The position numbers were made by a program, and so were the translations under genes. Positions 5,401 to 57,497 of a stretch of 64,000 nt of DNA are shown one piece after another. The first letter of the stretch is position 1. Each line of letters starts with the position of its first letter. The notes below the pieces were generated by a model. It was not told where the DNA came from. It saw only the letters and a list, made by a program, of their open reading frames with translations, and did not search any database. Source of the DNA: Alphaproteobacteria bacterium (GTDB lineage: Bacteria > Pseudomonadota > Alphaproteobacteria > DATDPM01). The stretch lies in assembly GCA_041498815.1 (NCBI GenBank), contig JBGQJC010000001.1:49773-113772 (forward strand). The letters are read 5' to 3'.

Positions 5401-6519
5401 TCAGTGCAATCGGGCGATGATGAGATAAGTCATTCCGCCGATCGCCGCGGCGCAAGGCAGCGTCACGATCCACGATAAAACGATTCCCGTGACGGTCTTG
5501 ATGTTGGCCTGGCCGGTCGTAAGCCCGATGCCGAACAGCGCGCCGACGGCGACATGGGTGGTGGAGACCGGGAGCCCGAGCGTGCTCGCCAGGATGACCA
5601 GGATTCCGGTCGCCAGATTCGAGGAGAATCCCTGGCCGTGGTTCATCGCCGTGATCTTGTGGCTCATCGTCTCCGCCACCCGGCGGGCACCGAGCAAACC
5701 GCCGATCGCGATCGCCAGCCCGGTAAGCGCTGCGTCCGTCGCGGGCGCGAGCCATGTCACCAACAGCAGAAGGGCCGCGATCTTGGGCGTGTCGCTGAGG
5801 CCGCGGGCGAAGGAAACGATGCCCGCGCTCAGGAAATGGCCGGCGTCGACGATTCTCTGCGCGTCCACGCCGACGACGGTGCCGGCGTAGCGCTCCCGGC
5901 AGCTCGTCACGTCGCAGCACCCGACATTGACCACCGGCACGGCCCGCATCGCCAGCATCGAATCCCCGCGCGGGATGGCGACGATGCGCACTTCCGTGCC
6001 GATGCAAATGCACCACTCCTTGGGGAGCTTAAGCAGCCAGCGCGCGCCGTGGAAAACGGTATAGAGCGCGGCGCCCAAGGCCACCGCCAGCACCGGGCTT
6101 AGCAGCAGCGGCAGGACGAAGCTTCGGCCGAGCGCGGAAAGATCGACACCGCCAAAGCCGACGGCGGCCCAGCCGGAACCGGCGAGCGCGCCCAGCAAGC
6201 TATGCGTGGTCGAGATCGGAAATCCCAGGCGGGCCGCAAGAATGACCGTAGCACCTGCGCCCAATGCCACCGCCAGCAGGAAATATTCGGAGGCGACCAG
6301 CGTGTCGGGCACCAGCCCCCGGCCGGAGAATTTCTTGAGCAAAGCTTCCGCCAGAAAGATCGAGGCGACCGATCCGGCGAAAGTGGTAAGGGTCGCCCAG
6401 GCGATCGCCACCTTGTAGCCGGCCGTGCCGCTGCCGTAGAGGGTGGCGACTCCCTTGAAGTTGTCGTTCGCGCCGTTGGCGTAGGCGAGGAGGCATGCGG
6501 CAAGGAGGAGCAGGCTCAT
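5401..6519 (-). CDS. inorganic phosphate/anion transporter, PiT family
   Basis: A polytopic membrane protein with duplicated GANDNFKG and GLPVSTTH-type PiT signature blocks. Confidence 0.75.
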   Translation of the reverse strand: MSLLLLAACLLAYANGANDNFKGVATLYGSGTAGYKVAIAWATLTTFAGSVASIFLAEALLKKFSGRGLVPDTLVASEYFLLAVALGAGATVILAARLGFPISTTHSLLGALAGSGWAAVGFGGVDLSALGRSFVLPLLLSPVLAVALGAALYTVFHGARWLLKLPKEWCICIGTEVRIVAIPRGDSMLAMRAVPVVNVGCCDVTSCRERYAGTVVGVDAQRIVDAGHFLSAGIVSFARGLSDTPKIAALLLLVTWLAPATDAALTGLAIAIGGLLGARRVAETMSHKITAMNHGQGFSSNLATGILVILASTLGLPVSTTHVAVGALFGIGLTTGQANIKTVTGIVLSWIVTLPCAAAIGGMTYLIIARLH

Positions 6520-6655
6520 GCCTCGGGAGGCTAGGCAAGACTCCGGGGCGGCGACAAATCACGACTGCGATACCATGGCCCTCCTCCGCCGTCCGGCAAC
6601 TATTTGAGCGGCCCAGGATGGACGGGTATTCGCGCGCCGGGCTAGAACACCCCTG

Positions 6656-6745
6656 GATGGGTGGCCGAGCGGTTTAAGGTACCGGTCTTGAAAACCGGAA
6701 AACCCGCAAGGGTTTCGTGGGTTCGAATCCCACCCCATCCGCCAG
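6656..6745 (+). tRNA. tRNA-Ser (anticodon UGA), 90 nt with long variable arm and encoded CCA
   Basis: Acceptor stem ggatggg/cccatcc, anticodon loop cuUGAaa, a long extra arm and the T-arm ggttcgaatcc. Confidence 0.9.
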
Positions 6746-6976
6746 TTATACCGCAACCCGTTGATCTTCCAGCAAGCTGCTGATCCAGCAAACTTTTTTG
6801 TTCCTGGTTGTTACACCAACCTGTTACACCGGGAGCATGAAAGACATGAGCAAACATCCCCGATTGGTGGCCCGTGGTCGCCGCTATTATTTCCGCGCCA
6901 AAATCCCTGCCGATCTCGTTGAGCATGTGCCCCTAACCAGCGAGGGTAGCCCTTTTGGACGGTTGGGACGGATCGG

Positions 6977-7927
6977 GTGTCAACGAAATCGACGCCAGCA
7001 CGTTCCAAATCGTCGAAACTGGCCAGATCATTCGGAAGATCAGCTAGCGGTATCTTCGTGAAATGGACATATCCATGCGCGTTCACATGCGCGCCAGTAT
7101 CGAGTTCGTTGGCGAGCGGAGACGTGGAGGGAACGGCGGTGTGGAAGAGGATTGTGCGGGCGATTCGCGACGCACTCGTTTCGCCAGCACACGATGACGA
7201 GTACATTTCGCGAGAGTTATTTCACTTCGTTGGGCGTACGCATCCGGACAACGACGAAGCCAATTACGGGATTCTGTCAAAGATAATTTCGTCGCGAACG
7301 GTATCGCATCCGCCTCACAACAGCGACTGGGGCAAAATTAGCTATACGATCACTTCGACGGGCGGATTACTCGAAGGGACGCTCATTGAGCCGACGATTA
7401 CATGCTACAGCGATATCCCGTTGCGCAGCCTGCGAATCCATATTGAGAAATACGGCAAATTTGGTCTTTCATTTCATCGCGAGCCTTTGATTTTTCATGG
7501 CGCTAGGCCCGTCACTTATGTGCCGGTCGATTATGGGCCGGGCAATGTTCACGACTCTCCAGCGCAGGGGCGGTATTTAATCGCAGGCTTCGAGGCAGCA
7601 TATCGTGGCTTTATACGTCACATTTATGATAATGAAGCTCGGGCTGTGAGATCAAGCGTTATTGGCAAAGTGGCCGAAAATCGCGCTCAAACAGTTGAGG
7701 CCGTCAAACGCATCTTTGAGAAAGATTTTCTGGCTTTCATAAAAACGTATGATGACCGACTCCCGAAGGATCATCCAAACAACTACTACATGGAACGTGA
7801 GTGGCGGAAACTCGGGAACTTCCAGTTTACGCCGGATCAAGTAATCAGGGTGGTTGTTCCTTCTGCCTATCAAAACCAGATCGCTCGCGCGTTTCCGAAC
7901 TATGTAGATAAAATCTACACGATCTAG
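6977..7927 (+). CDS. hypothetical protein, sole cargo of the low-GC islet at tRNA-Ser (start uncertain; GTG at 7139 possible)
   Basis: The ORF is markedly AT-richer than its flanks from about 7180 to 7930. It has no ATG inside until residue 270. The C-terminal block is NYYMEREWRKLGNFQF. No family could be assigned confidently. Confidence 0.6.
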   Translation: MSTKSTPARSKSSKLARSFGRSASGIFVKWTYPCAFTCAPVSSSLASGDVEGTAVWKRIVRAIRDALVSPAHDDEYISRELFHFVGRTHPDNDEANYGILSKIISSRTVSHPPHNSDWGKISYTITSTGGLLEGTLIEPTITCYSDIPLRSLRIHIEKYGKFGLSFHREPLIFHGARPVTYVPVDYGPGNVHDSPAQGRYLIAGFEAAYRGFIRHIYDNEARAVRSSVIGKVAENRAQTVEAVKRIFEKDFLAFIKTYDDRLPKDHPNNYYMEREWRKLGNFQFTPDQVIRVVVPSAYQNQIARAFPNYVDKIYTI

Positions 7928-33172: not shown

Positions 33173-33961
33173 CTAGGCCTGCTTGCGTCCGCCTTCGTGG
33201 GAGGTCGCTACGCCGCGCGTTCTTGCCCTCAGCTCCGGCGGCCGGTCGTCGGGGGGCGACACGATGCCGCCCGAGATCACCATCTTGATCCCCTCCTCCA
33301 CCGTCATCGACAGCACGACGATTTCGCTGCGAGGCACGAATAGCAGGAATCCCGAGGTCGGGTTGGGCGTGGTCGGAACGAACACATTCACGACCTCTTC
33401 CTCGGTCAGCTCCTGAACCTCGCCTTCCGTGATCCCGGTGATGAAGCCAAGGCCCCAAATCCCGCGGCGCGGGTATTCGACCAGCACCACCTCGCGGAAA
33501 GCGGTCGAATGGGTGCCGACGACGGTTTCGGTGAGTTGCTTGACCGCGCCGTAGACCCCGCGCACCACCGGCATGCGTGCGAGCACGCGGTCGCTGAGGC
33601 GCAAGAACAGCCTTCCCGCCAAGTTGGAGGTCAAGGCGCCGACCAGGATAAGCCCGACGATGGCGACGATCAGGCCGAATCCGGGCAGGCCGAAGGGCAG
33701 GTAATTCTGGGGGTTGTAGCGCTCCGGGATGAGCGGGGTGACCCAGCCGTCGACGATGCCGACGAAGGTCAGAACCAGGTAAACCGTGATACCGATCGGC
33801 GCGGTAACCAGGATTCCGGCAATGAAATAGTTCCGCAGGCGCGCAGCCAACCCCCCGTGCCCCGGACGCGGGGCGCTTCGCGGGCCTTGCGCCGGAAGGT
33901 CCAAATCCTGCTGGCTGCCGGAGGTGCCGCCGGCATCCTGGGGTTTTTGAGGGGTCGGCAT
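33173..33961 (-). CDS. DUF502 family membrane protein
   Basis: Two N-terminal TM segments and a conserved VRGVYGAVKQL...FITG...FVPTTPNPTSGFL block. Confidence 0.65.
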   Translation of the reverse strand: MPTPQKPQDAGGTSGSQQDLDLPAQGPRSAPRPGHGGLAARLRNYFIAGILVTAPIGITVYLVLTFVGIVDGWVTPLIPERYNPQNYLPFGLPGFGLIVAIVGLILVGALTSNLAGRLFLRLSDRVLARMPVVRGVYGAVKQLTETVVGTHSTAFREVVLVEYPRRGIWGLGFITGITEGEVQELTEEEVVNVFVPTTPNPTSGFLLFVPRSEIVVLSMTVEEGIKMVISGGIVSPPDDRPPELRARTRGVATSHEGGRKQA

Positions 33962-34159
33962 GGGTTATTGCGGCCTGGTTGCGGGCGGCGGATCACAACA
34001 CGATAAACACACGCCGCGCAACGGCGTACCATGGAAGCGCAATTTCGCTTTTGCGGTTCCGGCCGGTGCCGGTCACAAACCCGTGAACGCCTGGGCGCGG
34101 CATTGGCAAGCGGCGCCATTGGCACGAAATTAAGCGCCCGCTGAGGAGCCCCGCAAATC

Positions 34160-35206
34160 ATGACCAACCGCCCCCGCTTGCTCGGATTGGCTACCGCCGT
34201 CCCTCCCCACCGTCTGCAGCAATCCGATGTCATCGCCCGCGCCGAAAAATTGTTCGACCGCGACGCGAGCGAGATCGAGCGCATGATGGGCGTTTACGGC
34301 AACGCCGGAATCGAAAGCCGGTATTCCTGTGTGCCGCTCGAATGGTACGAGCAGCCCCACGGCTGGACCGAGAAGAACCGGCTGTTCCTCGAGCACGCCG
34401 TGGACCTGCTGGAGCGCGCGACCGGCGACGTGCTTGGGCAAACCGGGCTCGACGCCGCCGACATCGACGGTATCGTCGCGGTTTCGACCACCGGCATCGC
34501 AACCCCCAGCTTGGACGCTCTTCTTATGGAGCGCATGGGGTTCCGCCGCGACGTCTGGCGGCTCCCCGTGTTCGGGCTCGGCTGCGCGGGCGGCGTGCTG
34601 GGCCTCGCCAGGGCGGCGGCGATGGCGGCGGGCGCGCCGAAACAGAAAATCCTCTATCTCGTGGTCGAGCTGTGCGCCCTCACCTTCCGCCGCTCCGACC
34701 AGTCCAAAAGCAACATCATCGCCACCGCCCTGTTCGGCGACGGCGCCGCCGCGGCGATCGTGAGCTGCGAGGGCGACGGCCCCGAAATCTCCGCCTGGGG
34801 CGAGCACTGCTGGCCCGACTCTCTCGAGGTGATGGGCTGGCAGGTCGAAGACGACGGATTGGGCGTGGTCTTTTCGCGTAATATTCCCAATATCATCCGG
34901 TCCGATCTTCGCGCGGCGACCGAAGCGTTTTTGCAGGCCAACGGACTTGCGCTCCCGGATATCGCGAGCTTCATCTGCCATCCCGGCGGGGCCAAGGTGA
35001 TCGAGGCGCTGGAAGACGCCTTCGGGCTTGTCCGGGGCGCCATGGCGGAAGGCCGCTCGGTGCTGCGGGACTTCGGCAACATGTCGGCCGCAACCATCAT
35101 GTTCGTGCTGCAGCGGGCATTGGGCGCAGCCGCTCCCGGCCGGGCCCTTTTACATGCGCTCGGGCCCGGCTTCACCGCCGGGTTCCTGCTGCTGAACCGG
35201 GCCTAA
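34160..35206 (+). CDS. type III polyketide synthase (chalcone/stilbene synthase family)
   Basis: Active-site Cys in GLGCAGG, His in CHPGGAKV and Asn in GNMSAAT. Confidence 0.85.
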   Translation: MTNRPRLLGLATAVPPHRLQQSDVIARAEKLFDRDASEIERMMGVYGNAGIESRYSCVPLEWYEQPHGWTEKNRLFLEHAVDLLERATGDVLGQTGLDAADIDGIVAVSTTGIATPSLDALLMERMGFRRDVWRLPVFGLGCAGGVLGLARAAAMAAGAPKQKILYLVVELCALTFRRSDQSKSNIIATALFGDGAAAAIVSCEGDGPEISAWGEHCWPDSLEVMGWQVEDDGLGVVFSRNIPNIIRSDLRAATEAFLQANGLALPDIASFICHPGGAKVIEALEDAFGLVRGAMAEGRSVLRDFGNMSAATIMFVLQRALGAAAPGRALLHALGPGFTAGFLLLNRA

Positions 35207-35211
35207 AGGCC

Positions 35212-35718
35212 ATGACGATGCACTACATCATCGTCGCCGCGATCGTGCTGCAGCGGCTGGCGGAGCTCGTCTATTCCCGCCGCAACTTGGAGCGGCTGGT
35301 GGCAAACGGCGCCGCCGTGATAGCGGAGCCTTCCTACCCCTGGCTCGTCGCCGTGCACACGGCCTGGATCGCGGCGCTGGTCATTGCGGTTCCGGCCGAC
35401 GCCCCGGTTCAAATCCCCTTCCTTGCGCTCTATCTGGTCCTTCTGGTGCTGCGGGTCTGGGTGATGACAAGCCTGGGGCGGTACTGGTGCACAAGGATCG
35501 TGACGCTGCCCGAAGCACCGCTGGTGACCAGCGGGCCTTACCGCTTCCTGCGGCACCCGAACTACGCGGTGGTGGCGGGCGAGATTCTGGTGGCGCCTCT
35601 CATCTTCGGCGCCTGGGAGATCGCGGCGATCTTCAGCGTGTTGAACGCGGCGCTGATCTATCTGCGGATCGAGCGCGAGGATGCGGTGCTGGCGGCGCGC
35701 CGCGCCCCGTCCATCTAA
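35212..35718 (+). CDS. isoprenylcysteine carboxyl methyltransferase (ICMT)-family membrane methyltransferase
   Basis: GPYRFLRHPNY plus a C-terminal E..E..Y block. It lies 6 bp after the PKS gene. Confidence 0.8.
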   Translation: MTMHYIIVAAIVLQRLAELVYSRRNLERLVANGAAVIAEPSYPWLVAVHTAWIAALVIAVPADAPVQIPFLALYLVLLVLRVWVMTSLGRYWCTRIVTLPEAPLVTSGPYRFLRHPNYAVVAGEILVAPLIFGAWEIAAIFSVLNAALIYLRIEREDAVLAARRAPSI

Positions 35719-35723
35719 ACCAT

Positions 35724-37178
35724 CTAAAGAAGGCCGCGCACCGCGGGCGCGGCGGTGATCCGGCCTTCGCCCGTGTAGGCCTCGTGGTTGGCCTCGATCT
35801 CGTCGATCTTATAGCGGTAGTTCACCATCAGCCCGGCCGACTGCGCCAAGCCCTTGGCGGAACGGTCGCCCAGCCAATTGAGGCGCTCGACCCGCGCCCC
35901 GTTGCCGAGGTGGAAATGCGCGACCCGGTCGCGTGCATTCGCCCCGCGCCGCTCCAGCAGCAGGTAGCGCGCGCAAAGCCGCAGCAACACGGGTTTCAAA
36001 AGCTCGACCTTTACCGCGTCGCCGACCCACGCCTGGTCGCGCAGCATTGCGAGCAACGCCGCGTTGCCGTCGTTGGCATGGGCGGCGGCCGCCAGCTCGT
36101 TCGCCTCGGGCGGCTCCAAGACCTCGTGGCCGGCGCCGATCTCGGCCTCCAGCCAGCGCATGAACGAAGGCATCGGCGACAGCGTCACGAATTGCCGGAG
36201 ATTGGGGAACTCGTGGGCGAGGTCCTCCACCACCCGTTTGATCAGGAATCCGCCGAAGCTGACGCCCACCAAACCCTTCTGGGCATTGGAGATCGAATAG
36301 AAGACAGCGGTGTCGGCGCTCTTCGGGTCCTGGCGGGGGGCGCCCTCGTCGAGAAGCGCCTGAACGTCCCCGGCCATGCCGGTGGTGAGGGCCGCCTCGA
36401 GGAAGATCAAAGGCTCGTCCGGCATGCGGGGGTGGAAGAAGGCGTAACAGCGCCGGTCGGAATCGAGCCGGTTCTTGAGATCGCCCCAGGAGCGGATCTG
36501 GTGCACCGCTTCGTAGTCGATGAGCTTTTCCAGCAAGGCGGCCGGCGACTCCCAGGTAATGCGCTTCAACTCCAGGATTCCGATGTCGAACCAGGACGCC
36601 AAGAGGTCGCGCAGTTCCGAGTCGAGCCCGGTCAGTTCGGGCTCCGACTTCGAGAACCGGATGAGGTCGGCGCGAAGGTCCGTCAGAAACTTAATTCCCT
36701 CGCCCAAGGTGCTGAACTGCCGCAGGAACTTGAGGCGCGGCGGAACGAGGGCCTGGCGCAAGTCCGAGACCGCCGCGGCAAAGGCGGGCTCGTTCTTTGC
36801 GGCGCTCAGGGAAGCGGCGGCGGCCGCGGCCGTTTTGCGGTCGAGGCCATAGTCGCGGGCCAAGAGACCGAGAAACCGGGCCCGGCCGGCATCGTTGAGA
36901 TCGAGATAGCAGGCACCTAGTTCCGCGGCCCTAGCGCGTGCCGAAACTTCGCCGCCTAAGGCTAGCAGGCACTCGTCGATGCGTTCGCGCAGGCGCGCGA
37001 GGTCGTCGGGCGGGAGATCGGGACGGAAGGCGCCGGAGAGGCGCAGCCGGGCCGTGCCGACGATGTCGCGCCAAGCGTTGATAAGGGCGCTTCGGGTGCG
37101 GCCAAAGAACCCGGCCCGATCCGGCATGCGCGCCACTGTGCCGGGTTCGCTCATTTCTTTCAAGGCCGTGGGCTTCAT
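35724..37178 (-). CDS. malonyl-CoA decarboxylase
   Basis: MCD family blocks (YSISNAQKGL...VAHFHLGNGA). Its start overlaps the upstream stop (ATGA). Confidence 0.8.
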   Translation of the reverse strand: MKPTALKEMSEPGTVARMPDRAGFFGRTRSALINAWRDIVGTARLRLSGAFRPDLPPDDLARLRERIDECLLALGGEVSARARAAELGACYLDLNDAGRARFLGLLARDYGLDRKTAAAAAASLSAAKNEPAFAAAVSDLRQALVPPRLKFLRQFSTLGEGIKFLTDLRADLIRFSKSEPELTGLDSELRDLLASWFDIGILELKRITWESPAALLEKLIDYEAVHQIRSWGDLKNRLDSDRRCYAFFHPRMPDEPLIFLEAALTTGMAGDVQALLDEGAPRQDPKSADTAVFYSISNAQKGLVGVSFGGFLIKRVVEDLAHEFPNLRQFVTLSPMPSFMRWLEAEIGAGHEVLEPPEANELAAAAHANDGNAALLAMLRDQAWVGDAVKVELLKPVLLRLCARYLLLERRGANARDRVAHFHLGNGARVERLNWLGDRSAKGLAQSAGLMVNYRYKIDEIEANHEAYTGEGRITAAPAVRGLL

Positions 37179-38209
37179 GGCTTCCATCCCGCAAGAAGTT
37201 CTGGCGCCGGGCGCACACTTCCCACCTTCGTACCAACCCAATTAAAAATCGGTGACTCGAAAACCTCGGCCAGCCCTGCCGTCTCGGCTTCGCCGAAAAC
37301 GCCGAAGCGCCGCAACAGCCCGCCCATCGCCGTTTCGGCCGCGCGGTTTGCCCCGTCGTCGATCTTGAGCGCCAAGCCAAGGCCCGGCAATGCCGCGCAA
37401 TAAACGCCCTCGGCCCCGCCCTTGACCAAGACGCGCCCGCGGGCCGCCTCCATGACCCTGGTCCCGAACCGTCCGGTGCCCGCGATCAGGAAAGGGTTGG
37501 CTTCCATGGCTCTGCTAATCCGCAGCAGCGCCGACTGGCGAGGTCCGGGCTCGGACTTCGGATCGGCCAAGCGCGCGATCCCGCGGGCAAGCGCAACCAG
37601 GGGAACCGCATGCACCGGGATGCCGCAGCCGTCGATCCCGCCCGGCGCGGATTCGAGGTCGGTCTCGAAGACCTCGGACAAGATCTTGCGCAGCAGGCGC
37701 TGAACCGGGTGGCCGGGGCGGATGTATCCCATGACGGGCTCGTTCAAATGGCGGGCGACGGTCAAGAAGCCGGCATGCTTGCCCGAGCAGTTGTTGTCGA
37801 CGGCGGATGGGCCCCGCCCCTCGCGCCAAAGAGTACGGGCGGCGGAATCGGTGCGGGGCGGCTCCGGCCCGCATTCGAGATCGGCCTCGCTGCATCCGAT
37901 CCGCTCCAGCCAAGCCGTCACGATTTCGACGTGGCGGGGCTCGGCCGTGTGGCTGGCGCAGGCGAGCGCGACCTCGTCATCGCCCAATCCGAACGCGTCG
38001 GCGGCGCCGGATTCGAGCAGGGCCAAGGCCTGCAGCGGCTTGATGGCCGAGCGCGGAAAGACCGGGGCATCCACCGCCCCTGTTGCGAAAACCAGGTTCC
38101 CGCCGGAATCGACGGCCGCGACCGCGCCGCGGTGGCGGCTTTCGACCAAATCGCCCCGGGTCACCTCGACCAGGACCGGATTTGCGGCTCGCGCCGGGAT
38201 CTCAACCAT
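37175..38209 (-). CDS. L-asparaginase II family (Rhizobium-type asparaginase)
   Basis: Family blocks RSAIKPLQAL, CSGKHAGFL and GGAEGVYCAA. The internal start MVEIPARAANP was used. Confidence 0.8.
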   Translation of the reverse strand: MVEIPARAANPVLVEVTRGDLVESRHRGAVAAVDSGGNLVFATGAVDAPVFPRSAIKPLQALALLESGAADAFGLGDDEVALACASHTAEPRHVEIVTAWLERIGCSEADLECGPEPPRTDSAARTLWREGRGPSAVDNNCSGKHAGFLTVARHLNEPVMGYIRPGHPVQRLLRKILSEVFETDLESAPGGIDGCGIPVHAVPLVALARGIARLADPKSEPGPRQSALLRISRAMEANPFLIAGTGRFGTRVMEAARGRVLVKGGAEGVYCAALPGLGLALKIDDGANRAAETAMGGLLRRFGVFGEAETAGLAEVFESPIFNWVGTKVGSVRPAPELLAGWKP

Positions 38210-38235: not shown

Positions 38236-38586
38236 TTATTCGAAATGCCGGGCGACCAAAACCCGGGTCTCCCGGTCCATCATCGTAAAGACGCCCGCCA
38301 CTTCGCCCGTTTCCTTGTCGGCGCGGACGATGATCGCCTTGCACGCGAAATGGATGGTGTTTCCCGGCACTTCGATCCGGAACCGGATGTCGACGCCGTC
38401 GCCTTCGCGCCGGGGGCAATCGCAGGGCATGGCCAGGAACCCGGTCGAGCTCCAGTTCTTCACCGGATAGCTGCGCCCGTCGATCTCCACCGTGCCGAGC
38501 TTGACCTCTTCACGCCGCTCGCGGCGCTTCTCGCCTGCTGCTAGGCCCACGAGCGACAGGAGCGTTGTCAACAGGTTGCGCGACAT
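38236..38586 (-). CDS. PilZ domain protein (small)
   Basis: The short form of 116 aa has RxxxR...DxSxxG-like PilZ elements (RRERREE ... NWSSTGF). Confidence 0.5.
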   Translation of the reverse strand: MSRNLLTTLLSLVGLAAGEKRRERREEVKLGTVEIDGRSYPVKNWSSTGFLAMPCDCPRREGDGVDIRFRIEVPGNTIHFACKAIIVRADKETGEVAGVFTMMDRETRVLVARHFE

Positions 38587-47969: not shown

Positions 47970-49805
47970 CTAGTCGGGATCGAAGACATTTCTGTAATCG
48001 CGCTTAAGCGACGGGTTCTGCTCGCTTTTCACGAGATAGAGATTGCCCACCGCCAGCGAGTCCAATTCGGTGCCCATGAAGCAGCGGAACGCATCCTCGG
48101 GCGTGCACACGATCGGTTCGCCGCGCACGTTGAAACTGGTGTTGCACAGCACGGGACAGCCGGTCTTCGCCTTGAAGACCGAGAGCAAGGCGTGGAAGCG
48201 CGGGTTAGTCTCGCCGTGGACGGTTTGGATGCGCGCCGAGTAGTCGACGTGGGTCACCGCGGGTATTTCGGAGCGCGGCACCTTGAGCTTCTCGATGCCG
48301 AAAAGCTTCTGCTCTTGCGCCGTCATCTGGCGCCGGCGGCGCTTCGCCACGTCGGCAACCAGCAGCATGTAAGGGCTGTCGGTGTCGAGATCGAACCAAT
48401 CGGAGACGTCGTCCCGCAACACGGCGGGCGCGAACGGGCGGAACGATTCGCGGTACTTGACCTTGAGGTTGAGGGCCGATTGCATTTCGGGCCGGCGCGC
48501 GTCGGCGAGGATCGAGCGATTGCCGAGCGCCCGCGGCCCGAACTCCATGCGGCCCTGGAACCAGCCGAGCACCTTGCCGTCCGCCAGATCCGCGGCCGCG
48601 CGCGCGATGACCGCGTCGCCGCCGAGCCGCAGGAAACGGGCGCCCGCGGCTTCGAGCCGTTTGGCGCTGTCATCGTCGTCGAATTCGGGACCGAGATAGG
48701 CGCCGCTCATGCCGTCCTGCCGGTTGGCGACCTGGCGCGGGCGATCCTTGTAGACGTGATAGGCGGCGAGTGCGGCGCCCAAGGCCCCGCCGGCGTCCCC
48801 GGCCGCGGGCTGGATCCAGATGCGCTTGAATTTGCCGTCGCGCAAAATCTTGCCGTTCGCGACGCAGTTGAGCGCGACGCCGCCGGCAAGGCACAGATTT
48901 TCCGCGCCGGTCTCGCTTGCTATGCCGCGCGTGAGGCGCAGCACGATTTCCTCGGTCACGGTCTGGATCGACGCGGCGAGATCCATGTGGCGCTGCGAGA
49001 GCGCCTCATCGGCTTTACGCGCCGGCCCGCCGAGCAGCCGGTCGAATTTGCCGCTGGTCATCCGCAGGCCGGTGCAATAGTCGAAATACGACTGGTCGAG
49101 GCGGAAAGTGCCGTCGGGCTTGAGGTCGACGAGATTCTCGAGAATGAGCTTGGTGTATTTGGGCTCGCCGTAAGGGGCAAGACCCATGAGCTTGTATTCT
49201 CCCGAATTGACCTTGAAGCCGGTGTAATAGGTGAAGGCCGAGTACAAGAGGCCGAGCGAATGGGGGAAGTGCAATTCCTTCACCATCTCGAGATGGTTCC
49301 TGCTTCCGAACCCGACCGAGGTCGTCGCCCACTCGCCGACGCCGTCCATGGTCAGGATCACCGCTTCTTCAAACGGAGAGGGAAAGAAGGCGGACGCCGC
49401 GTGGCTTTGGTGATGTTCGCCGAAGAGAAGCCGGTTCTGCCAGTCGTAGTCCGCCGCGAATTTCCCGAGCTCGTCGCGCAGGAGCTGCTTCTGGAACAGC
49501 TTTTCGCGCAGCCAAAGCGGGATCGCCATGCGGAAGGACGCGAATCCCCTGGGCGCGAAGGAAAGATAGGTTTCGAGCAGGCGCTCGAACTTCAGGAACG
49601 GCTTGTCGTAGAAGACGACGTGGTCGACCGAATCCAGCGAGATCCCGCCTGCCCGCAAACAGTATTCGATCGCGTGGCGGGGAAAGCCGGCATCGTGCTT
49701 CTTGCGCGTGAAACGCTCTTCCTGGGCCGCGGCCACGATGGCGCCGTCCCGGAGAAGGGCGGCGGCGCTGTCGTGGTAGAAGGCGGAAATGCCGAGGATG
49801 TGCAT
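47970..49805 (-). CDS. carbamoyltransferase (NodU/CmcH family)
   Basis: MHILGISAFYHDSAAAL starts a Kae1/YgjD-like fold. The C-terminal domain is the carbamoyltransferase domain. Confidence 0.9.
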   Translation of the reverse strand: MHILGISAFYHDSAAALLRDGAIVAAAQEERFTRKKHDAGFPRHAIEYCLRAGGISLDSVDHVVFYDKPFLKFERLLETYLSFAPRGFASFRMAIPLWLREKLFQKQLLRDELGKFAADYDWQNRLLFGEHHQSHAASAFFPSPFEEAVILTMDGVGEWATTSVGFGSRNHLEMVKELHFPHSLGLLYSAFTYYTGFKVNSGEYKLMGLAPYGEPKYTKLILENLVDLKPDGTFRLDQSYFDYCTGLRMTSGKFDRLLGGPARKADEALSQRHMDLAASIQTVTEEIVLRLTRGIASETGAENLCLAGGVALNCVANGKILRDGKFKRIWIQPAAGDAGGALGAALAAYHVYKDRPRQVANRQDGMSGAYLGPEFDDDDSAKRLEAAGARFLRLGGDAVIARAAADLADGKVLGWFQGRMEFGPRALGNRSILADARRPEMQSALNLKVKYRESFRPFAPAVLRDDVSDWFDLDTDSPYMLLVADVAKRRRRQMTAQEQKLFGIEKLKVPRSEIPAVTHVDYSARIQTVHGETNPRFHALLSVFKAKTGCPVLCNTSFNVRGEPIVCTPEDAFRCFMGTELDSLAVGNLYLVKSEQNPSLKRDYRNVFDPD

Positions 49806-49822
49806 CCTGCGGGCGGCCGCGA

Positions 49823-49975
49823 TCAGAAGAGCGTGTAAATGAAGGGGGCGACCGCGGAGCCCATGGTGAGCGCGATGAGCCCGCCGAATATCACCATCAT
49901 GACGAGGACCGGCAGCAACCAATATTTTTTGCGCACCCTCAGGAACATCCAAATCTCGGACAGAAACGAAAGCAT
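49823..49975 (-). CDS. DUF5989 family small membrane protein (50 aa)
   Basis: MLSFLSEIWMFLRVRKKYWLLPVLVMMVIFGGLIALTMGSAVAPFIYTLF. Its start lies 2 bp after the SxtJ-like stop. Confidence 0.7.
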   Translation of the reverse strand: MLSFLSEIWMFLRVRKKYWLLPVLVMMVIFGGLIALTMGSAVAPFIYTLF

Positions 49976-49977
49976 GT

Positions 49978-50415
49978 TCAGAACTGATTCTTCATCGATT
50001 CGGGAGGCGGCCCCGGCGGGTTCCGCGGGATCCAGTAGCTGGCGGCGGCGGCATCCCGTCGCAACCGGAGGGGATCGTTTCCGAACGCGCGCATGAGCAC
50101 GCCGACTGGGGTCACGAAAAGATAGTAAAGCAGCCCGAGGAAAACCGGACTGACGATGCGGTTGAGCAGGAGGCCGAGCCCGGTCCAGAGGCGGTTGAGC
50201 GGCGCCAGACCATCCGGCCAGGCCAGTGCCAGGACCAGGAACAGGGCCGAAAGCCCGAGCGCCCACCAGCGCACCGGTCCATGCCCTTCCAGGACCAAGG
50301 GGGCTAGAGCCACGATCGCGAAGAAGGCGGCCATGACCAGCCCGAAGGTGCGATCGGAGGAGCCGTGGATCTCCTCGGGCCGGCTGAAATCCTCGTGCAT
50401 TCGGGACCGTTCCAT
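49978..50415 (-). CDS. SxtJ-like membrane protein
   Basis: About three TM helices. This protein is the usual partner of DUF5989 and a carbamoyltransferase in this conserved gene trio. Confidence 0.6.
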   Translation of the reverse strand: MERSRMHEDFSRPEEIHGSSDRTFGLVMAAFFAIVALAPLVLEGHGPVRWWALGLSALFLVLALAWPDGLAPLNRLWTGLGLLLNRIVSPVFLGLLYYLFVTPVGVLMRAFGNDPLRLRRDAAAASYWIPRNPPGPPPESMKNQF

Positions 50416-50714
50416 TTAGTGGGACGTTGCCAGGGTATTAAGTATCTTGTTAAAGATTTGAAGGGAAGAGCCAAGGGAATCGCGATCGAAGCGGGCGGAT
50501 CGATGCCAGGGGGGTGGCCTTTTGTCCAGCGCCGCGAGGGGCTTGCCGGGCGCTTCCCGGGTATGGCGGATTGCCGGACCGGAACAGGAAACTCCGGAGC
50601 CCCTTTTGAGCCGATGACGATCGCGTCGAGCGAGACCCCTTGCGGCGGTAAGTTCACGCGCCCGCACATAGCCTGAGTTGCGTGAACCATTGGCCTGGAG
50701 GGCCAGGCAAGGGC

Positions 50715-51695
50715 ATGCCGTCGAAAATCAAATCCATTCTGTCTTCCGCGGCGCTGGCCGCCGTTTCGGTGGCCGTTTCGCTTGGCGCCGCCGAGGGCAT
50801 CTTGCGGATCAAGAACGCATCGATGACCAATTACGACATCGAGATGTGGCGTTACGCCAAGGAGCTGAAGATCCGCAGCGACGATCCCGCGCTCGACTTC
50901 GACCATTTGAAATCGAAATCCGCCGTCCTCGAGAACGTCGCCATACGGCTCAACGATTGGGGCTTGCGCGGCGGACCCATAGCACCCGCGCCCGGCAGGC
51001 GCATCCTCTTTCTCGGCGGGTCGATTACCTTGGGCTGGGGCGTGGCCGAAGAGGACACGGTCGAGGCCAGGCTCGAAAAGATGCTGGCCGGCCAAAAAGC
51101 CGAGGTCCTCAACGGCGGGGTCGGCAACTACAACGCCGAGCGTTACGTATCGCGCTTCTTTCACGAACTCACCGGGCTGAAGCCCACCGATATCGTCGTG
51201 CACTATTTTCTGCGGGATGCCGAGGATCTGCCGCCGGGCGGCGGGAACTTTCTGCTGCGGCACAGCGAGCTCGCGGTCACCTTGTGGATCGCCGCCCACA
51301 GGACGTTCGACAAATCCGGGGAGGCGTCGCTGGTGGAGCATTACCGGCAAGCGTACCGGCCGGACGCCCCCGGATTCCTCAAGATGAAGGACGAGCTGAA
51401 AAAGCTCGCCGATTACGCCAAAGAGAACGGCATCCGCATCTACCTCGCCATGGTCCCCGACGTCCACGACTTGATCGATTACAAGTTCGCATTCGTGCAT
51501 GACATCATGCGCCGGATCGCGGAGACGGACGGCTATACCTACATCGACCTGTTGCCCGCCTTGCAAGGGCGGCCGCCGCAGGAACTCTGGGCTATGCCGG
51601 GCGACCCGCACCCCAATGCGCTGGGCCACGAAGCAATGGCGCAGGCGATTTTTCCGGCGATCGCGAAAACGGGCGAGAGCCCAAGCGGCCGATGA
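50715..51695 (+). CDS. SGNH/GDSL hydrolase (AlgX/AlgJ-like, alternative start at 50682)
   Basis: N-terminal signal/anchor, block I LFLGGSITLGWG and block V GDPHPNALGH. Confidence 0.75.
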   Translation: MPSKIKSILSSAALAAVSVAVSLGAAEGILRIKNASMTNYDIEMWRYAKELKIRSDDPALDFDHLKSKSAVLENVAIRLNDWGLRGGPIAPAPGRRILFLGGSITLGWGVAEEDTVEARLEKMLAGQKAEVLNGGVGNYNAERYVSRFFHELTGLKPTDIVVHYFLRDAEDLPPGGGNFLLRHSELAVTLWIAAHRTFDKSGEASLVEHYRQAYRPDAPGFLKMKDELKKLADYAKENGIRIYLAMVPDVHDLIDYKFAFVHDIMRRIAETDGYTYIDLLPALQGRPPQELWAMPGDPHPNALGHEAMAQAIFPAIAKTGESPSGR

Positions 51696-51734
51696 GCGCG
51701 GACGCTCGATCCACCCGGAAAGGCTCGAGCCGCC

Positions 51735-53129
51735 ATGCTCTTTAGCTCGCCCGTTTTTTTCCTGTTCTTCGCCGCGTATTTTTTGCTGCATCTCGTGGTT
51801 CCCAAGCGCTTCAGGATTTATCTGATCATCGCCGGCAGCACGGTTTTCTACGCCTGGTGGCGGCCGGAATATGCCTGGATCCCGTATCTGCTGATGGCGA
51901 CGGCGTTCGGCGGCGCGCTGTGGATGGGGCAAGCGGATAGCCGCGGCCGGCGCAAGCGGCGCGTCCTATGCACCATCGCCGCGCTGTTCCTCCCCCTCCT
52001 CTTCTTCAAATACACGAATTTCATCTACCGCGACGTGATCGGCCCGTTCATCGGCAACCACGACAAGCTCATGGATCTCCCGCTGCCGCTTGGCGTGTCG
52101 TTCATCACCTTCACCCTCACGGCCTACGTCGTGGATGCGTTCAAGGGCAAGTTTGCCGTGAGCCGGTCGGCTTCGACGGTGCTTGGCTATGTGCTCTTCT
52201 TTCCCCATTTGATTGCCGGCCCGATTCTGCGGCCCGCCGACCTCATTCCGCAACTCGAACGCCCAAAGCCGGCGGCCCTTCGCCGCGCCGCGGTGCCGAT
52301 CGCGATCTTCACGCTCGGTCTCGTCAAAAAGCTGGTGTTCGCCGATCAGATCGGCGAGGCCGTCAACACGATTTACGCCCAGGCCGGGCCGAGCGGCCCG
52401 GCCACGCTGCTCGCGATCTACGGTTTCGCGGTCCAGATATACTGCGACTTCAGCGGCTATACCGACATGGCCATTGGTCTCGCGCTTATGCTCGGCATCC
52501 GGCTGCCGAACAATTTCCTCCGGCCTTACGCTTCAGAATCCCTGATCGATTTCTGGCAGCGGTGGCACATCACCCTTTCCTATTGGCTGCGGGATTATCT
52601 CTATATCCCGCTCGGCGGCAACCGCGGCAGCCGCGTCCGGCAGGCCGGCAACGTCATGATCACCATGGTGCTGGGCGGGCTTTGGCACGGCGCGAATTGG
52701 ACTTTCGTGATCTGGGGCATGCTCCACGGCATCGGCGTCGTTTTCGTGCAAGCGCTGAAACGGGATTTTCCCGGGCATTGGCTGCTTCGGATGCCGCGGT
52801 GGCTGGGCGTGTTCGTCACCTTCCACTTCGTCACCCTGGCTTGGGTATTTTTCCGGGCCGAAAGCCTTGGCAAGGCGCTCGCCATGCTCGCCGCCCCGTT
52901 TGCGGGCGGCTGGGAAAACGCTTACCCCGTGTTCGCCGCGAATGTTTTGCCGATCCTGCTGATCGTGATGTTCTTCGGCGTGCACCGTTACGACGATCAC
53001 CGCCGCATCAAGGCCGCGGTCCGGTACGTGCGCCCCGAAATCGTCTGGCCCGCGATCTTGCTCGGCTGGATTATCGCGATCGCGCTCAGCCAAGGCAGCT
53101 CGGCCAAGTTCATCTATTTCGATTTCTGA
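51735..53129 (+). CDS. MBOAT family membrane-bound O-acyltransferase (AlgI/DltB-like)
   Basis: Polytopic. It has the invariant His in the WHITLS..LRDY block and the GGLWHGA block. Confidence 0.9.
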   Translation: MLFSSPVFFLFFAAYFLLHLVVPKRFRIYLIIAGSTVFYAWWRPEYAWIPYLLMATAFGGALWMGQADSRGRRKRRVLCTIAALFLPLLFFKYTNFIYRDVIGPFIGNHDKLMDLPLPLGVSFITFTLTAYVVDAFKGKFAVSRSASTVLGYVLFFPHLIAGPILRPADLIPQLERPKPAALRRAAVPIAIFTLGLVKKLVFADQIGEAVNTIYAQAGPSGPATLLAIYGFAVQIYCDFSGYTDMAIGLALMLGIRLPNNFLRPYASESLIDFWQRWHITLSYWLRDYLYIPLGGNRGSRVRQAGNVMITMVLGGLWHGANWTFVIWGMLHGIGVVFVQALKRDFPGHWLLRMPRWLGVFVTFHFVTLAWVFFRAESLGKALAMLAAPFAGGWENAYPVFAANVLPILLIVMFFGVHRYDDHRRIKAAVRYVRPEIVWPAILLGWIIAIALSQGSSAKFIYFDF

Positions 53130-56643: not shown

Positions 56644-56868
56644 ATGAATGATCGATCCCAAACGCCCTGGTGGCGCACCAAGGCCGGGCTCGTATTCTGC
56701 GGCTTCCTGGCGGTCGCGGGCTTCTTCCTGATCACCGAGCACACCGCGCATGTCTTCGGTGCTTTGCCCTATCTGCTCCTTGCCGCATGTCCTTTGATGC
56801 ACCTCTTCATGCACCACGGGCACAGCGGCCGCCATCACGGCGGCGATGACGAGCATCGGCCGCGATGA
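56644..56868 (+). CDS. DUF2933 family small protein (His/Cys-rich metal-binding-like)
   Basis: A TM helix plus CPLMHLFMHHGHSGRHHGGDDEH. Confidence 0.6.
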   Translation: MNDRSQTPWWRTKAGLVFCGFLAVAGFFLITEHTAHVFGALPYLLLAACPLMHLFMHHGHSGRHHGGDDEHRPR

Positions 56869-57497
56869 ACGGTACGCCGGCCTATGGCCTGTGGTCGCTC
56901 GCCGCCATCAATTCGGCCGTGTTCATCATCTTTGCGTACAGCTTTACGAAGCCGCGGACGAACAGGGACTGGCGCTCGTTCGGCGCGTTCAGCGCCTTCA
57001 TCGTCGCGCTCTTTTCGGAGATGTACGGCTTTCCGTTGACGATTTACTTCCTCTCCGGTTGGCTGCAGAGCCGTTATCCTCAGGTCGATTGGTTTTCGCA
57101 CGACGCCGGCCACCTATTGGAGGAACTATTCGGCTGGAACGTTAATCCGCACTTCGGGCCATTCCATATCCTGAGCTTCATCTTCATCGGGGGTGGCTTC
57201 ATCTTGCTTGCGGCGGCGTGGCGCGTTCTCTATGACGCGCAGCGGCAGCATCGTCTCGCGGTAGCCGGCCCGTACGCATATGCGCGGCACCCGCAATATG
57301 TGGGCTTTGTCGCCATCATGTTCGGGTTCCTCCTGCAATGGCCGACGATCCTCACATTGGCGATGTTCCCGCTGCTGGTGTTCATGTACGTGCGCTTGGC
57401 GGTCGCCGAAGAGCATGACGCGCGGCGCGAATTCGGCGAGGCCTACGAGCGGTACGCCGCGGTAACACCACGGTGGGTGCCGCGCCTCGGCGGATAA
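56865..57497 (+). CDS. ICMT/PEMT-like membrane methyltransferase family protein
   Basis: GPYAYARHPQYVG plus a C-terminal EE..L...FGE.Y block. Its start overlaps the DUF2933 stop (ATGA). Confidence 0.75.
   Translation: MNGTPAYGLWSLAAINSAVFIIFAYSFTKPRTNRDWRSFGAFSAFIVALFSEMYGFPLTIYFLSGWLQSRYPQVDWFSHDAGHLLEELFGWNVNPHFGPFHILSFIFIGGGFILLAAAWRVLYDAQRQHRLAVAGPYAYARHPQYVGFVAIMFGFLLQWPTILTLAMFPLLVFMYVRLAVAEEHDARREFGEAYERYAAVTPRWVPRLGG

What the first reader, a model, noticed from the sequence alone, without database searches (positions are those of the whole stretch)
34160..37241. Alkylresorcinol/alkylpyrone-type locus (type III PKS plus ICMT-family O-methyltransferase) convergent with malonyl-CoA decarboxylase
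The PKS and the membrane methyltransferase are 6 bp apart. This matches the SrsA/SrsB (Streptomyces) and ArsB/C-type phenolic-lipid logic, in which a type III PKS product is methylated by an ICMT-like enzyme. The adjacent malonyl-CoA decarboxylase, overlapping an L-asparaginase II gene, could modulate the extender-unit pool. A phenolic-lipid pathway in this lineage would be an accessory membrane-lipid trait, for example related to cyst or stress envelope formation.
Basis: partly seen in the sequence, partly recalled or inferred. Interest (0 to 1): 0.5.

Follow-up and report, generated by a model that had tools for sequence, protein, structure and literature searches.

The report
Phenolic-lipid synthase and methyltransferase gene pair
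This is an ordinary two-gene operon, a type III polyketide synthase plus a small membrane methyltransferase, of the widespread bpsAB/srsAB kind that makes methylated long-chain pyrone or resorcinol lipids; the neighbouring malonyl-CoA decarboxylase is not part of it.

Summary
The genes are real. There is a 348-aa type III PKS (34160-35206, +) and, 5 nt later, a 168-aa ICMT-family membrane methyltransferase (35212-35718, +). A malonyl-CoA decarboxylase (MCD) gene converges on them.

The PKS has the Cys142/His274/Asn307 triad. Its closest solved relatives, by sequence and by predicted fold, use long-chain acyl starters: M. tuberculosis Pks11, then CylI. It does not group with DpgA or resemble THNS/RppA closely. 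The PKS-ICMT pair is conserved in 76 of 80 distant loci. It also occurs in cultured Azospirillum, Nitrobacter, Sphingomonas, Lysinibacillus (bpsAB-like) and Streptomyces (srsAB-like). JGI already names the identical proteins "alkylresorcinol/alkylpyrone synthase" and "methyltransferase".

MCD is close to the pair only in the window's near relatives, and in 1 of 80 distant loci. It lies on the other strand, probably in its own operon (hypothetical gene, asparaginase II, MCD). Its conserved start is Met39 of the longest ORF, so the claimed overlap with asparaginase II comes from ORF extension. The upstream DUF502 gene belongs to a housekeeping mfd-sdhE-recG-DUF502 block that also exists without the PKS.

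Verdict: a new member of a known kind, of low interest. The core interpretation is supported; the MCD link is not.

The parts
33962..34159 (+). 198-nt spacer between the divergent DUF502 gene and the PKS; probable promoter and regulatory region of the PKS-ICMT operon. Blocks conserved in close relatives: CCGCGCAAC (34013-34021), GGTCACAAACCCGTGAAC (34071-34088), CATTGGCA (34101-34108). Shine-Dalgarno GAGGAG lies at 34143-34148, 11 nt before the ATG.
   Evidence: Sequence read. Alignment with L081, L083 and L085. No sigma-70 consensus and no EcfG motif, so the promoter itself is inferred, not shown.
34160..35206 (+). Type III polyketide synthase, 348 aa. Catalytic Cys142, His274 and Asn307. Phe192, Trp227 and Lys279 are invariant in the family.
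   Evidence: Pfam. Invariant columns. Best solved relative is Pks11 at 201 bits and 36% identity. AlphaFold model has pLDDT 84.6 and pTM 0.88. Its best PDB folds are Pks11 (TM 0.89-0.90), then CylI. JGI names the identical protein 'alkylresorcinol/alkylpyrone synthase'.
35212..35718 (+). ICMT-family integral-membrane S-adenosylmethionine-dependent methyltransferase, 168 aa (166 aa if translation starts at the second ATG, 35218). Conserved GPYRxxRHPNY, Glu124, Arg152 and Glu156.
   Evidence: Pfam ICMT 2e-27. Hit to Methanosarcina ICMT 4A2N across the RHPxY region. Hydrophobic segments at about 42-89 and 119-151. Alignment of 10 partners. JGI name 'methyltransferase'; an NCBI record has a 166-aa version.
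35733..35753 (.). GC-rich palindromic hairpin (GCCGCGC-N7-GCGCGGC) just past the ICMT stop and inside the last codons of MCD. On the minus strand a T-rich tail follows it. It is a possible terminator for MCD and a possible weak one for the PKS-ICMT transcript.
   Evidence: Terminator-like scan and sequence. Function is inferred only; the number of such sites in the region is not above the shuffle expectation.
35724..37127 (-). Neighbour, judged NOT part of the system: malonyl-CoA decarboxylase, 467 aa from the conserved start Met39 of the longest ORF.
   Evidence: Pfam MCD_N and MCD. Start conserved in 4 relatives. Translation. Near the PKS in only 1/80 distant loci.
37175..38209 (-). Neighbour, NOT part of the system: asparaginase II family protein (344 aa from Met71 of the longest ORF). 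It lies upstream of MCD on the same strand. A 116-aa hypothetical gene (38236-38586) precedes it.
   Evidence: Pfam PF06089 1.3e-114, matching from residue 84 of the long ORF. Relatives are 322-341 aa. Translations.
33173..33961 (-). Neighbour, probably NOT part of the system: DUF502 membrane protein, divergent from the PKS.
   Evidence: Pfam DUF502 4e-35. Adjacent to the PKS in about a third of distant loci, and wherever recG is also within reach it lies between recG and the PKS. The recG-DUF502 block also occurs without PKS-ICMT in 3 of 4 sampled loci.

Best explanation
The locus is a two-gene bpsAB/srsAB-type operon for a methylated phenolic lipid.

Step 1 (inferred from homology). The soluble homodimeric type III PKS loads a medium- or long-chain fatty acyl thioester onto Cys142. 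The donor is acyl-CoA or possibly acyl-ACP; Lys279 sits at the position that has been linked to ACP-bound starters. The enzyme adds two or three malonyl-CoA units, possibly also methylmalonyl-CoA. It releases the chain either by lactonisation to a 4-hydroxy-6-alkyl-2-pyrone or by aldol cyclisation to an alkylresorcylic acid or alkylresorcinol.

Step 2 (inferred). The co-translated ICMT-family membrane enzyme uses S-adenosylmethionine to O-methylate the ring hydroxyl. For a resorcylic acid it may perform decarboxylative methylation, as SrsB does. The product is a methoxy-alkylpyrone or methoxy-alkylresorcinol that partitions into the membrane.

Shown here: the gene pair, its tight linkage, the intact catalytic and cofactor motifs, its conservation as a unit across phyla, and its presence or absence at one chromosomal site.

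Not shown: the starter, the extender, the ring type and the physiological role.

No dedicated fatty acid synthase, acyl-AMP ligase or SrsC-type hydroxylase turned up among the larger ORFs scanned across the window. Starters therefore probably come from general fatty-acid metabolism, and the pathway probably stops before a quinone. The convergent hypothetical-asparaginase II-MCD genes and the divergent DUF502 gene are unrelated neighbours.
For: - Family and motifs: Pfam type III PKS and ICMT domains. Cys142, His274, Asn307, Phe192, Trp227 and Lys279 are invariant in 20 homologues. They sit one residue off the DquA residues Cys141, His273, Asn306, Phe191, Trp226 and Lys278 described for an alkylpyrone synthase (PMC9827899).
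- Solved relatives by sequence: Pks11 scores 201 bits, against CylI 132, THNS 126 and PKS18 118.
- Solved relatives by fold: Pks11 comes first, then CylI, Ectocarpus PKS1, the M. marinum PKS and PKS18. THNS ranks only 49th.
- Published phylogeny: Pks11, SrsA, PKS10 and CylI share one clade (PMC8086630).
- DpgA excluded: the NCBIfam model scores 153 bits against a cut-off of 425, and DpgA falls outside in the tree (87% bootstrap).
- Conserved pairing: ICMT lies directly downstream in 76/80 distant loci. The same holds in Azospirillum lipoferum, Marinovum, Nitrobacter, Sphingomonas, Lysinibacillus, Streptomyces and Nonomuraea.
- ICMT cofactor region: the RHPNY motif aligns to 4A2N and is invariant in partners.
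- Operon signals: a 5-nt gap between the genes, and a good Shine-Dalgarno sequence before the PKS.
- Source names: JGI calls the identical proteins 'alkylresorcinol/alkylpyrone synthase' and 'methyltransferase'.
- Literature: BpsA/BpsB and DquA/DquB define this two-gene module (PMC9827899, PMC5686519).
Against: - No product data exist for this clade.
- The window's PKS sits in its own 96%-supported, mostly alphaproteobacterial clade. Its relation to the Pks11, CylI, BpsA-like and THNS branches is unresolved (34% bootstrap).
- I could not obtain authentic BpsA, SrsA, RpsA or PhlD sequences for comparison.
- The nearest cultured relative that may be characterised is the R. etli p42d PKS (44% identity), probably RePKS. 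In vitro it also makes a heptaketide pyrone from acetyl-CoA and malonyl-CoA (PMC6274091), and it lacks an ICMT partner.
- The Trp at the ArsB Trp281-type position does not predict ring type reliably (PMC9827899).
- DquB could not be shown to be active in E. coli, so methylation by ICMT partners rests on BpsB and SrsB alone.
Confidence: 0.75

Rival explanations
1. The pair makes the ring of an alkyl-benzoquinone electron carrier, as the S. griseus srsABC operon and the mycobacterial polyketide quinones do. A hydroxylase encoded elsewhere in the genome would complete the pathway.
For: Pks11 and SrsA clade enzymes feed quinone pathways (PMC10896814; PMC8086630). Eight distant loci add a P450 and Azospirillum adds an SDR after ICMT. 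Oxidative tailoring therefore occurs in some relatives.
Against: No monooxygenase, P450 or SDR lies next to the pair here or in the close relatives. None turned up among the larger ORFs scanned across the window. The two-gene form is the commonest arrangement.
Confidence: 0.1
2. The PKS is primed by acetyl- or malonyl-CoA and makes a non-lipid aromatic polyketide (RePKS-, THNS- or PhlD-like), which the ICMT enzyme then methylates.
For: The probable RePKS of R. etli lies in the same 96% clade (44% identity). In vitro it forms a heptaketide pyrone from acetyl-CoA and malonyl-CoA. The position of THNS relative to this clade is unresolved.
Against: RePKS also accepts C4-C18 acyl-CoA, and its gene lacks the ICMT partner. 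Sequence and fold rank long-chain-acyl enzymes first and THNS far lower (26% identity, fold rank 49). A membrane-embedded methyltransferase fits a lipid substrate better than a soluble one. DpgA is excluded.
Confidence: 0.08
3. One reading: the convergent malonyl-CoA decarboxylase is functionally coupled to the PKS and tunes the malonyl-CoA (or malonyl/methylmalonyl) extender pool.
For: The stop codons are 5 nt apart. The adjacency is kept in all relatives examined at 79-83% PKS identity. Relatives such as RpsA and Pks11 mix malonyl and methylmalonyl extenders.
Against: MCD lies within 10 kb of the PKS in 1 of 80 distant loci, about what chance predicts for a single-copy gene (roughly 0.4). 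It is on the opposite strand. It is the last gene of a hypothetical-asparaginase II-MCD run with gaps of 26 and 47 nt. The close relatives share the entire ~17 kb gene order, so the adjacency reflects shared descent. MCD would deplete the PKS substrate.
Confidence: 0.06
4. The divergent DUF502 membrane protein is a third component, for example a lipid handler or scaffold that shares a bidirectional promoter with the PKS.
For: DUF502 lies within 1.5 kb upstream of the PKS in 24 of the 67 distant loci that have at least 4 kb of upstream sequence. In 4 of these, recG is not within 10 kb. The spacer carries blocks conserved within sub-clades.
Against: Three of 4 sampled DUF502 orthologue loci have mfd-sdhE-recG-DUF502 with no PKS-ICMT. 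Thirty-seven loci with at least 4 kb upstream have PKS-ICMT with neither recG nor DUF502 nearby. The plasmid-borne pairs in cultured strains lack it.
Confidence: 0.06

Closest known systems
BpsA/BpsB of Bacillus subtilis (and DquA/DquB of Sporomusaceae)
   Same: A two-gene operon in which a type III PKS is directly followed by an ICMT-like membrane methyltransferase, with no other tailoring gene. Catalytic and acyl-binding residues sit one residue off the DquA numbering. A Bacillaceae bpsAB-like pair (Lysinibacillus) is 39-40% (PKS) and 38% (ICMT) identical.
   Different: It belongs to a different, alphaproteobacterial PKS clade (96% bootstrap). The organism is probably not a spore former, so the sporulation-linked role proposed for bpsAB and dquAB cannot simply be transferred.
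SrsA/SrsB/SrsC of Streptomyces griseus
   Same: A PKS plus an ICMT-type O-methyltransferase acting on a long-chain phenolic lipid. A Streptomyces PKS-ICMT pair is 41% and 39% identical. SrsA shares a published clade with Pks11 and CylI, the window PKS's best solved relatives.
   Different: No SrsC-type hydroxylase is present here, so no quinone branch is expected. Whether the ICMT enzyme performs SrsB-like decarboxylative methylation is unknown.
Pks11 of Mycobacterium tuberculosis (PDB 4JAO/4JAP)
   Same: It is the best solved relative by sequence (201 bits, 36% identity) and by predicted fold (TM 0.89-0.90). It has a similar short length (353 aa). It makes alkylpyrones from C16-C18 starters.
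   Different: Identity is only 36%. Pks11 sits in a large mycobacterial lipid PKS region, and its extender programme (methylmalonyl, then malonyl) cannot be assumed here.
RpsA of Rhodospirillum centenum and RePKS of Rhizobium etli (characterised alphaproteobacterial type III PKSs)
   Same: They come from the same bacterial class. The R. etli p42d PKS (probably RePKS) is 44% identical and falls in the same 96% clade. Both enzymes accept C4/C6 to C18/C20 acyl-CoA in vitro.
   Different: The R. etli gene has no ICMT partner. RePKS also makes a heptaketide pyrone, and RpsA uses methylmalonyl-CoA twice.
ArsB/ArsC of Azotobacter vinelandii (cyst phenolic lipids)
   Same: Type III PKSs that make alkylresorcinols and alkylpyrones as membrane lipids.
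   Different: The ars operon pairs the PKSs with dedicated type I fatty acid synthases (ArsA, ArsD) that hand over the starter, and it has no ICMT gene. Neither feature matches here. ArsC (3VS8) is not among the 60 best solved sequence relatives.

Membership tests
Type III polyketide synthase (chalcone synthase-like) | Chal_sti_synt_N and Chal_sti_synt_C domains above the curated thresholds | tested here: met
   73.2 and 53.8 bits against a cut-off of 27.
Type III polyketide synthase (chalcone synthase-like) | Cys-His-Asn catalytic triad and the gatekeeper Phe | tested here: met
   Cys142, His274, Asn307 and Phe192 are invariant in 20 homologues. They align with the catalytic residues of Pks11.
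Type III polyketide synthase (chalcone synthase-like) | Thiolase-type fold of solved members | tested here: met
   Model pLDDT 84.6 and pTM 0.88. TM-scores of 0.86-0.90 to Pks11, CylI and PKS18.
bpsAB/srsAB-type alkylpyrone/alkylresorcinol synthase plus methyltransferase module | The PKS gene is directly followed, on the same strand, by an ICMT-family membrane methyltransferase gene | tested here: met
   A 5-nt gap. The pair is kept in 76/80 distant loci. It also occurs in bpsAB-like (Lysinibacillus) and srsAB-like (Streptomyces) loci.
bpsAB/srsAB-type alkylpyrone/alkylresorcinol synthase plus methyltransferase module | The PKS is related to long-chain-acyl-primed enzymes rather than malonyl-primed ones | tested here: inconclusive
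   Favourable: Pks11 and CylI rank first by sequence and fold, and DpgA is excluded. However, the NJ tree leaves the branching among this clade, Pks11/CylI, BpsA-like and THNS unresolved (34%).
bpsAB/srsAB-type alkylpyrone/alkylresorcinol synthase plus methyltransferase module | Residues reported to bind long-chain acyl starters (Pks11/DquA Phe191 and Trp226 equivalents) | tested here: met
   Phe192 and Trp227 are invariant. Correspondence follows the DquA numbering in PMC9827899. Trp227 lies in a low-confidence loop of the model (residues 225-237).
bpsAB/srsAB-type alkylpyrone/alkylresorcinol synthase plus methyltransferase module | Methyltransferase with the ICMT cofactor-binding region and membrane topology | tested here: met
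   PF04140 2e-27. The RHPNY region aligns to 4A2N. Motifs are invariant in 10 partners. Several hydrophobic segments are present.
bpsAB/srsAB-type alkylpyrone/alkylresorcinol synthase plus methyltransferase module | Formation of O-methylated alkylpyrones or alkylresorcinols | not testable with these tools
   This needs expression and LC-MS.
srsABC quinone-forming variant | An adjacent SrsC-type hydroxylase | tested here: not met
   No monooxygenase lies next to the pair or among the larger ORFs scanned across the window. None is present in close relatives.
Azotobacter ars cyst-lipid system | Dedicated type I fatty acid synthases (ArsA, ArsD) in the same operon | tested here: not met
   The neighbours are DUF502, MacAB-type transporter genes, MCD and asparaginase II.
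DpgA (3,5-dihydroxyphenylacetyl-CoA synthase) | NCBIfam equivalog score, and dpgB/dpgC neighbours | tested here: not met
   153 bits against a cut-off of 425. 28-30% identity, and outside the clade. No enoyl-CoA hydratase neighbours.
THNS/RppA | Close similarity to solved THNS (1U0M) | tested here: not met
   126 bits against 201 for Pks11. 26% identity. Fold rank 49. Tree placement relative to THNS is weakly supported, so this rests on similarity ranking.
   1 of 80 distant loci. Adjacency is seen only in close relatives that share the whole gene order.

The most novel reading that the evidence does not exclude
The 96%-supported alphaproteobacterial PKS-ICMT clade, seen in hundreds of species and with only RePKS-type in vitro data, might make a structurally distinct methylated polyketide lipid. 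Examples would be methyl-branched rings from methylmalonyl-CoA, as with RpsA, or longer polyketide chains. Such a lipid could have its own membrane or signalling role. In this sub-lineage the abutting MCD operon might set the malonyl/methylmalonyl ratio that determines the product.
Probability: 0.1. Interest if true: 0.45.

Novelty: new member of a known kind. Interest (0 to 1): 0.2.

Why it matters
The finding adds one more uncultured alphaproteobacterial lineage to the many bacteria that carry the two-gene phenolic-lipid cassette. It also shows that the cassette sits, present or absent, next to a conserved mfd-sdhE-recG-DUF502 block. That could help in tracing gain and loss of the trait. Products and roles of this alphaproteobacterial clade remain uncharacterised, so it is a reasonable but not urgent target for heterologous expression. 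Nothing here changes the current understanding of type III PKS systems.

Tried and rejected
1. MCD as part of the system: rejected on synteny (1/80 distant loci), strand and operon structure.
2. MCD/asparaginase overlap: rejected. The conserved start is Met39. An ATGA-type start at Met22 is possible in the sequence but is not conserved in relatives.
3. DUF502 as a third component: largely rejected, because recG-DUF502 exists without the pair.
4. Stress regulation: no EcfG GGAAC-N15-18-CGTT site lies upstream of the PKS. The four sites in the window are all elsewhere and are at chance level.
5. Promoter: no sigma-70 consensus was found. A sigma-54-like TGGCAC-N-GC near 34121 has the wrong spacing by my reading of the sequence and is not conserved.
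6. Recent horizontal transfer: GC content is 0.665 against 0.65-0.67 in the flanks, so there is no compositional sign of it.
7. RNA elements: only two tRNAs are found in the window, both far from the locus.
8. Dead ends:
 - An exact-sequence look-up of the window's PKS found no contig record.
 - The primary BpsA/BpsB, SrsB and RpsA papers are not held.
 - Supplements held no reference sequences.
 - Authentic BpsA, SrsA, RpsA and PhlD therefore could not be placed in the tree.
9. Ring type (pyrone or resorcinol) and starter carrier (CoA or ACP): considered from Trp227 and Lys279, but the literature shows these positions are unreliable predictors.

Full report
**What is there.** The flagged interval holds three real genes.
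- 34160-35206 (+) encodes a 348-aa type III polyketide synthase. Chal_sti_synt_N, Chal_sti_synt_C and FAE1_CUT1_RppA all score above Pfam thresholds.
- 35212-35718 (+) encodes a 168-aa ICMT-family protein (PF04140, 2e-27; PEMT, 2e-7).
- On the other strand, the ORF 35724-37241 carries MCD_N and MCD domains (1e-105).

The PKS stop codon ends at 35206 and the ICMT ATG is at 35212, leaving five bases between them. A GAGGAG Shine-Dalgarno sequence lies 11 nt before the PKS ATG. The ICMT and MCD stop codons are five bases apart.

**One detail that fails.** That overlap exists only for the longest possible ORFs. Aligning MCD with four relatives shows a conserved start at Met39 of the long ORF, at position 37127. 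This is 47 nt after the asparaginase stop at 37175-37177. Gene callers on relatives leave gaps of 59-78 nt at the same place. The asparaginase II gene most likely runs 37175-38209. A 116-aa hypothetical gene (38236-38586) precedes it on the same strand. With gaps of 26 and 47 nt, hypothetical-asparaginase II-MCD looks like a separate operon that converges on PKS-ICMT.

**The PKS.**
- Cys142, His274, Asn307, Phe192, Trp227 and Lys279 are invariant in an alignment of 20 homologues.
- These residues sit one position off those described for the alkylpyrone synthase DquA: the catalytic Cys141/His273/Asn306, the long-chain-acyl-binding Phe191/Trp226, and Lys278 at the CoA-versus-ACP position (PMC9827899).
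- Among solved structures, M. tuberculosis Pks11 is by far the best sequence match (201 bits, 36% identity). It is followed by CylI (132), THNS (126), Steely1 (121) and PKS18 (118).
- An AlphaFold model (pLDDT 84.6, pTM 0.88) matches Pks11 best (TM 0.89-0.90). Next come CylI, Ectocarpus PKS1, an M. marinum PKS and PKS18, all enzymes that take long acyl starters. THNS ranks 49th.
- A published phylogeny puts Pks11, PKS10, SrsA and CylI in one alkylresorcinol/alkylpyrone clade (PMC8086630).
- The NCBIfam DpgA model scores 153 bits against a cut-off of 425.
- JGI annotates the identical protein as 'alkylresorcinol/alkylpyrone synthase'.

**The methyltransferase.** It aligns to the solved Methanosarcina ICMT (4A2N) across the RHPxY cofactor region. 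It has several hydrophobic segments. It shares the invariant GPYRxxRHPNY, Glu124, Arg152 and Glu156 with ten partners from other loci. JGI names it 'methyltransferase', and one NCBI record starts it at the second ATG, giving 166 aa.

**Is the pair a unit?** Yes. A scan of species-representative genomes found at least 595 loci encoding a relative, and the 80 best (56-65% PKS identity) were kept. Most are alphaproteobacterial MAGs (Stellaceae, Dongiaceae, Rhizomicrobium), plus cultured Telmatospirillum, Dongia and Brevundimonas. In 76 of these 80 loci an ICMT gene lies directly downstream. The exceptions are mostly contigs that end just after the PKS.

The plasmid collection adds cultured examples with annotation:

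| Organism | PKS identity | ICMT directly downstream? |
|---|---|---|
| Azospirillum lipoferum 4B | 49% | yes, then an SDR |
| Marinovum | 49% | yes |
| Sphingomonas | 48% | yes |
| Nitrobacter hamburgensis | 42% | yes |
| Lysinibacillus (Bacillaceae, bpsAB-like) | 39% | yes |
| Streptomyces NBC_01237 (actinomycete) | 41% | yes |
| Nonomuraea (actinomycete) | 37% | yes |
| R. etli p42d (probably RePKS) | 44% | no |
| DpgA loci | 28% | no |

**Tree.** I built a neighbour-joining tree of 31 sequences over 340 columns with 200 bootstraps.
- The window's PKS falls with its metagenomic relatives inside a 96%-supported, mostly alphaproteobacterial clade. That clade also holds the Azospirillum, Marinovum, Sphingomonas, Nitrobacter and R. 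etli enzymes.
- DpgA lies outside (87%).
- The branching among this clade, the Pks11/Streptomyces/Nonomuraea/CylI group, the BpsA-like group and THNS is unresolved (34%).
- Authentic BpsA, SrsA, RpsA and PhlD sequences could not be obtained.

The placement is therefore consistent with an alkyl-primed enzyme. The DpgA reading is rejected and the THNS reading is disfavoured. Formally, though, the placement rests on similarity ranking and on the conserved ICMT partnership rather than on a resolved tree.

**The neighbours.**
- MCD lies within 10 kb of the PKS in 1 of 80 distant loci, and asparaginase II in 2 of 80. For a single-copy gene in a ~20 kb window of a genome with several thousand genes, chance predicts about 0.4 of 80. 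There is thus no enrichment.
- In relatives with 79-83% PKS identity the MCD adjacency is kept, but so is the whole order recG ... DUF502 | PKS-ICMT | MCD-asparaginase II-hypothetical | SET-TPR over ~17 kb. This reflects shared descent.
- The DUF502 gene is divergent from the PKS. Wherever recG is also within reach, it lies between recG and the PKS. It is within 1.5 kb of the PKS in 24 of the 67 loci that have at least 4 kb of upstream sequence.
- Three of four sampled DUF502 orthologue loci carry mfd-sdhE-recG-DUF502 with no PKS-ICMT at all. DUF502 therefore belongs to the housekeeping block.
- The PKS-ICMT pair is a cassette that is present or absent beside that block. GC content gives no sign of recent transfer.

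**What is missing.**
- Pfam scans of the larger ORFs across the window found no acyl-AMP ligase, ACP, dedicated fatty acid synthase, flavin monooxygenase or P450.
- The system is therefore the minimal two-gene (bpsAB-like) form. It is not the srsABC quinone form or the Azotobacter ars form.
- No EcfG-type stress promoter or sigma-70 consensus lies upstream of the PKS.
- The spacer does carry short blocks conserved among close relatives.

**Most likely mechanism.** The PKS takes a fatty acyl thioester from general metabolism and extends it two or three times with malonyl-CoA, perhaps also methylmalonyl-CoA. It cyclises the chain to an alkylpyrone or an alkylresorcinol/resorcylic acid. The membrane ICMT enzyme then O-methylates the ring, as BpsB and SrsB do (PMC9827899, PMC5686519). 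The gene content, motifs and linkage are shown. The chemistry and the role are inferred. Roles reported for related lipids include cyst envelope in Azotobacter, beta-lactam tolerance in S. griseus, sporulation and biofilm signalling in Bacillus, and electron carriers in mycobacteria. None can be assigned here.

**Verdict.** This is a new member of a known, widely distributed and already auto-annotated module. The MCD extension, the overlap and the Ars analogy are not. Interest is low (0.2).

Noticed in passing
window 35708-35727: A 9-bp tandem duplication, CCATCTAAA CCATCTAAA, lies exactly at the convergent ICMT/MCD junction. It gives each gene a second in-frame stop codon 9 nt after the first. 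Close relatives have spacers of 33-48 nt there instead.
   Followed up: partly
window 56865-57497 (+): A second ICMT/PEMT-family membrane methyltransferase of 210 aa (PEMT 8e-8, ICMT 1e-7), unlinked to any PKS.
   Followed up: no
window 1571-4011 (-): A radical SAM/SPASM protein next to a subtilase S8 peptidase. This could be a peptide-modification (RiPP-like) pair.
   Followed up: no
window 6655-7927: A tRNA gene (6655-6741) is followed by a low-GC stretch (about 0.56) that encodes an AbiGi-like protein. It looks like a small integrated islet.
   Followed up: no
window 47970-53129: A carbamoyltransferase (NodU/CmcH type), a GDSL-like acylhydrolase and an MBOAT membrane O-acyltransferase lie close together. 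This may be a polysaccharide or lipid modification cluster.
   Followed up: no
L002, L007, L025, L040, L043, L045, L046, L048, L072: about 90-140 nt upstream of the PKS start: Each of these nine distant loci carries exactly one copy of GAAYATGTGAT, on the PKS strand in the DUF502-PKS spacer. It may be an operator or promoter element of one sub-clade. The window lacks it, but its own close clade shares GGTCACAA..CGTGA and CATTGGCA blocks (window 34071-34108).
   Followed up: partly
L014-L016, L019, L027, L042, L054, L059, L061, L064, L066 and others, downstream of ICMT: In about 16 distant loci an MFS transporter follows ICMT, usually on the same strand. In 8 loci a cytochrome P450 follows that. 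Azospirillum lipoferum has an SDR after ICMT. These are extended variants of the cassette with export or oxidation steps.
   Followed up: partly
L091 (Rhizobium etli CFN42 p42d, 5001-6053): The symbiotic-plasmid type III PKS (probably the characterised RePKS) belongs to the same clade but has no ICMT partner. It sits among BON-domain, CBS-domain and response-regulator genes.
   Followed up: partly
proteins P0122-P0138: DUF502 homologues of about 459 aa, roughly twice the usual length, occur in Kiloniellales-type MAGs. They look like tandem-duplicated DUF502 proteins.
   Followed up: no
L098 (record labelled Stenotrophomonas rhizophila plasmid) versus L094 (Lysinibacillus): The PKS-ICMT region of the 'Stenotrophomonas' plasmid record is nearly identical to the Lysinibacillus one and carries a FosB-type gene. 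The record may be mislabelled or contaminated Bacillales DNA.
   Followed up: no
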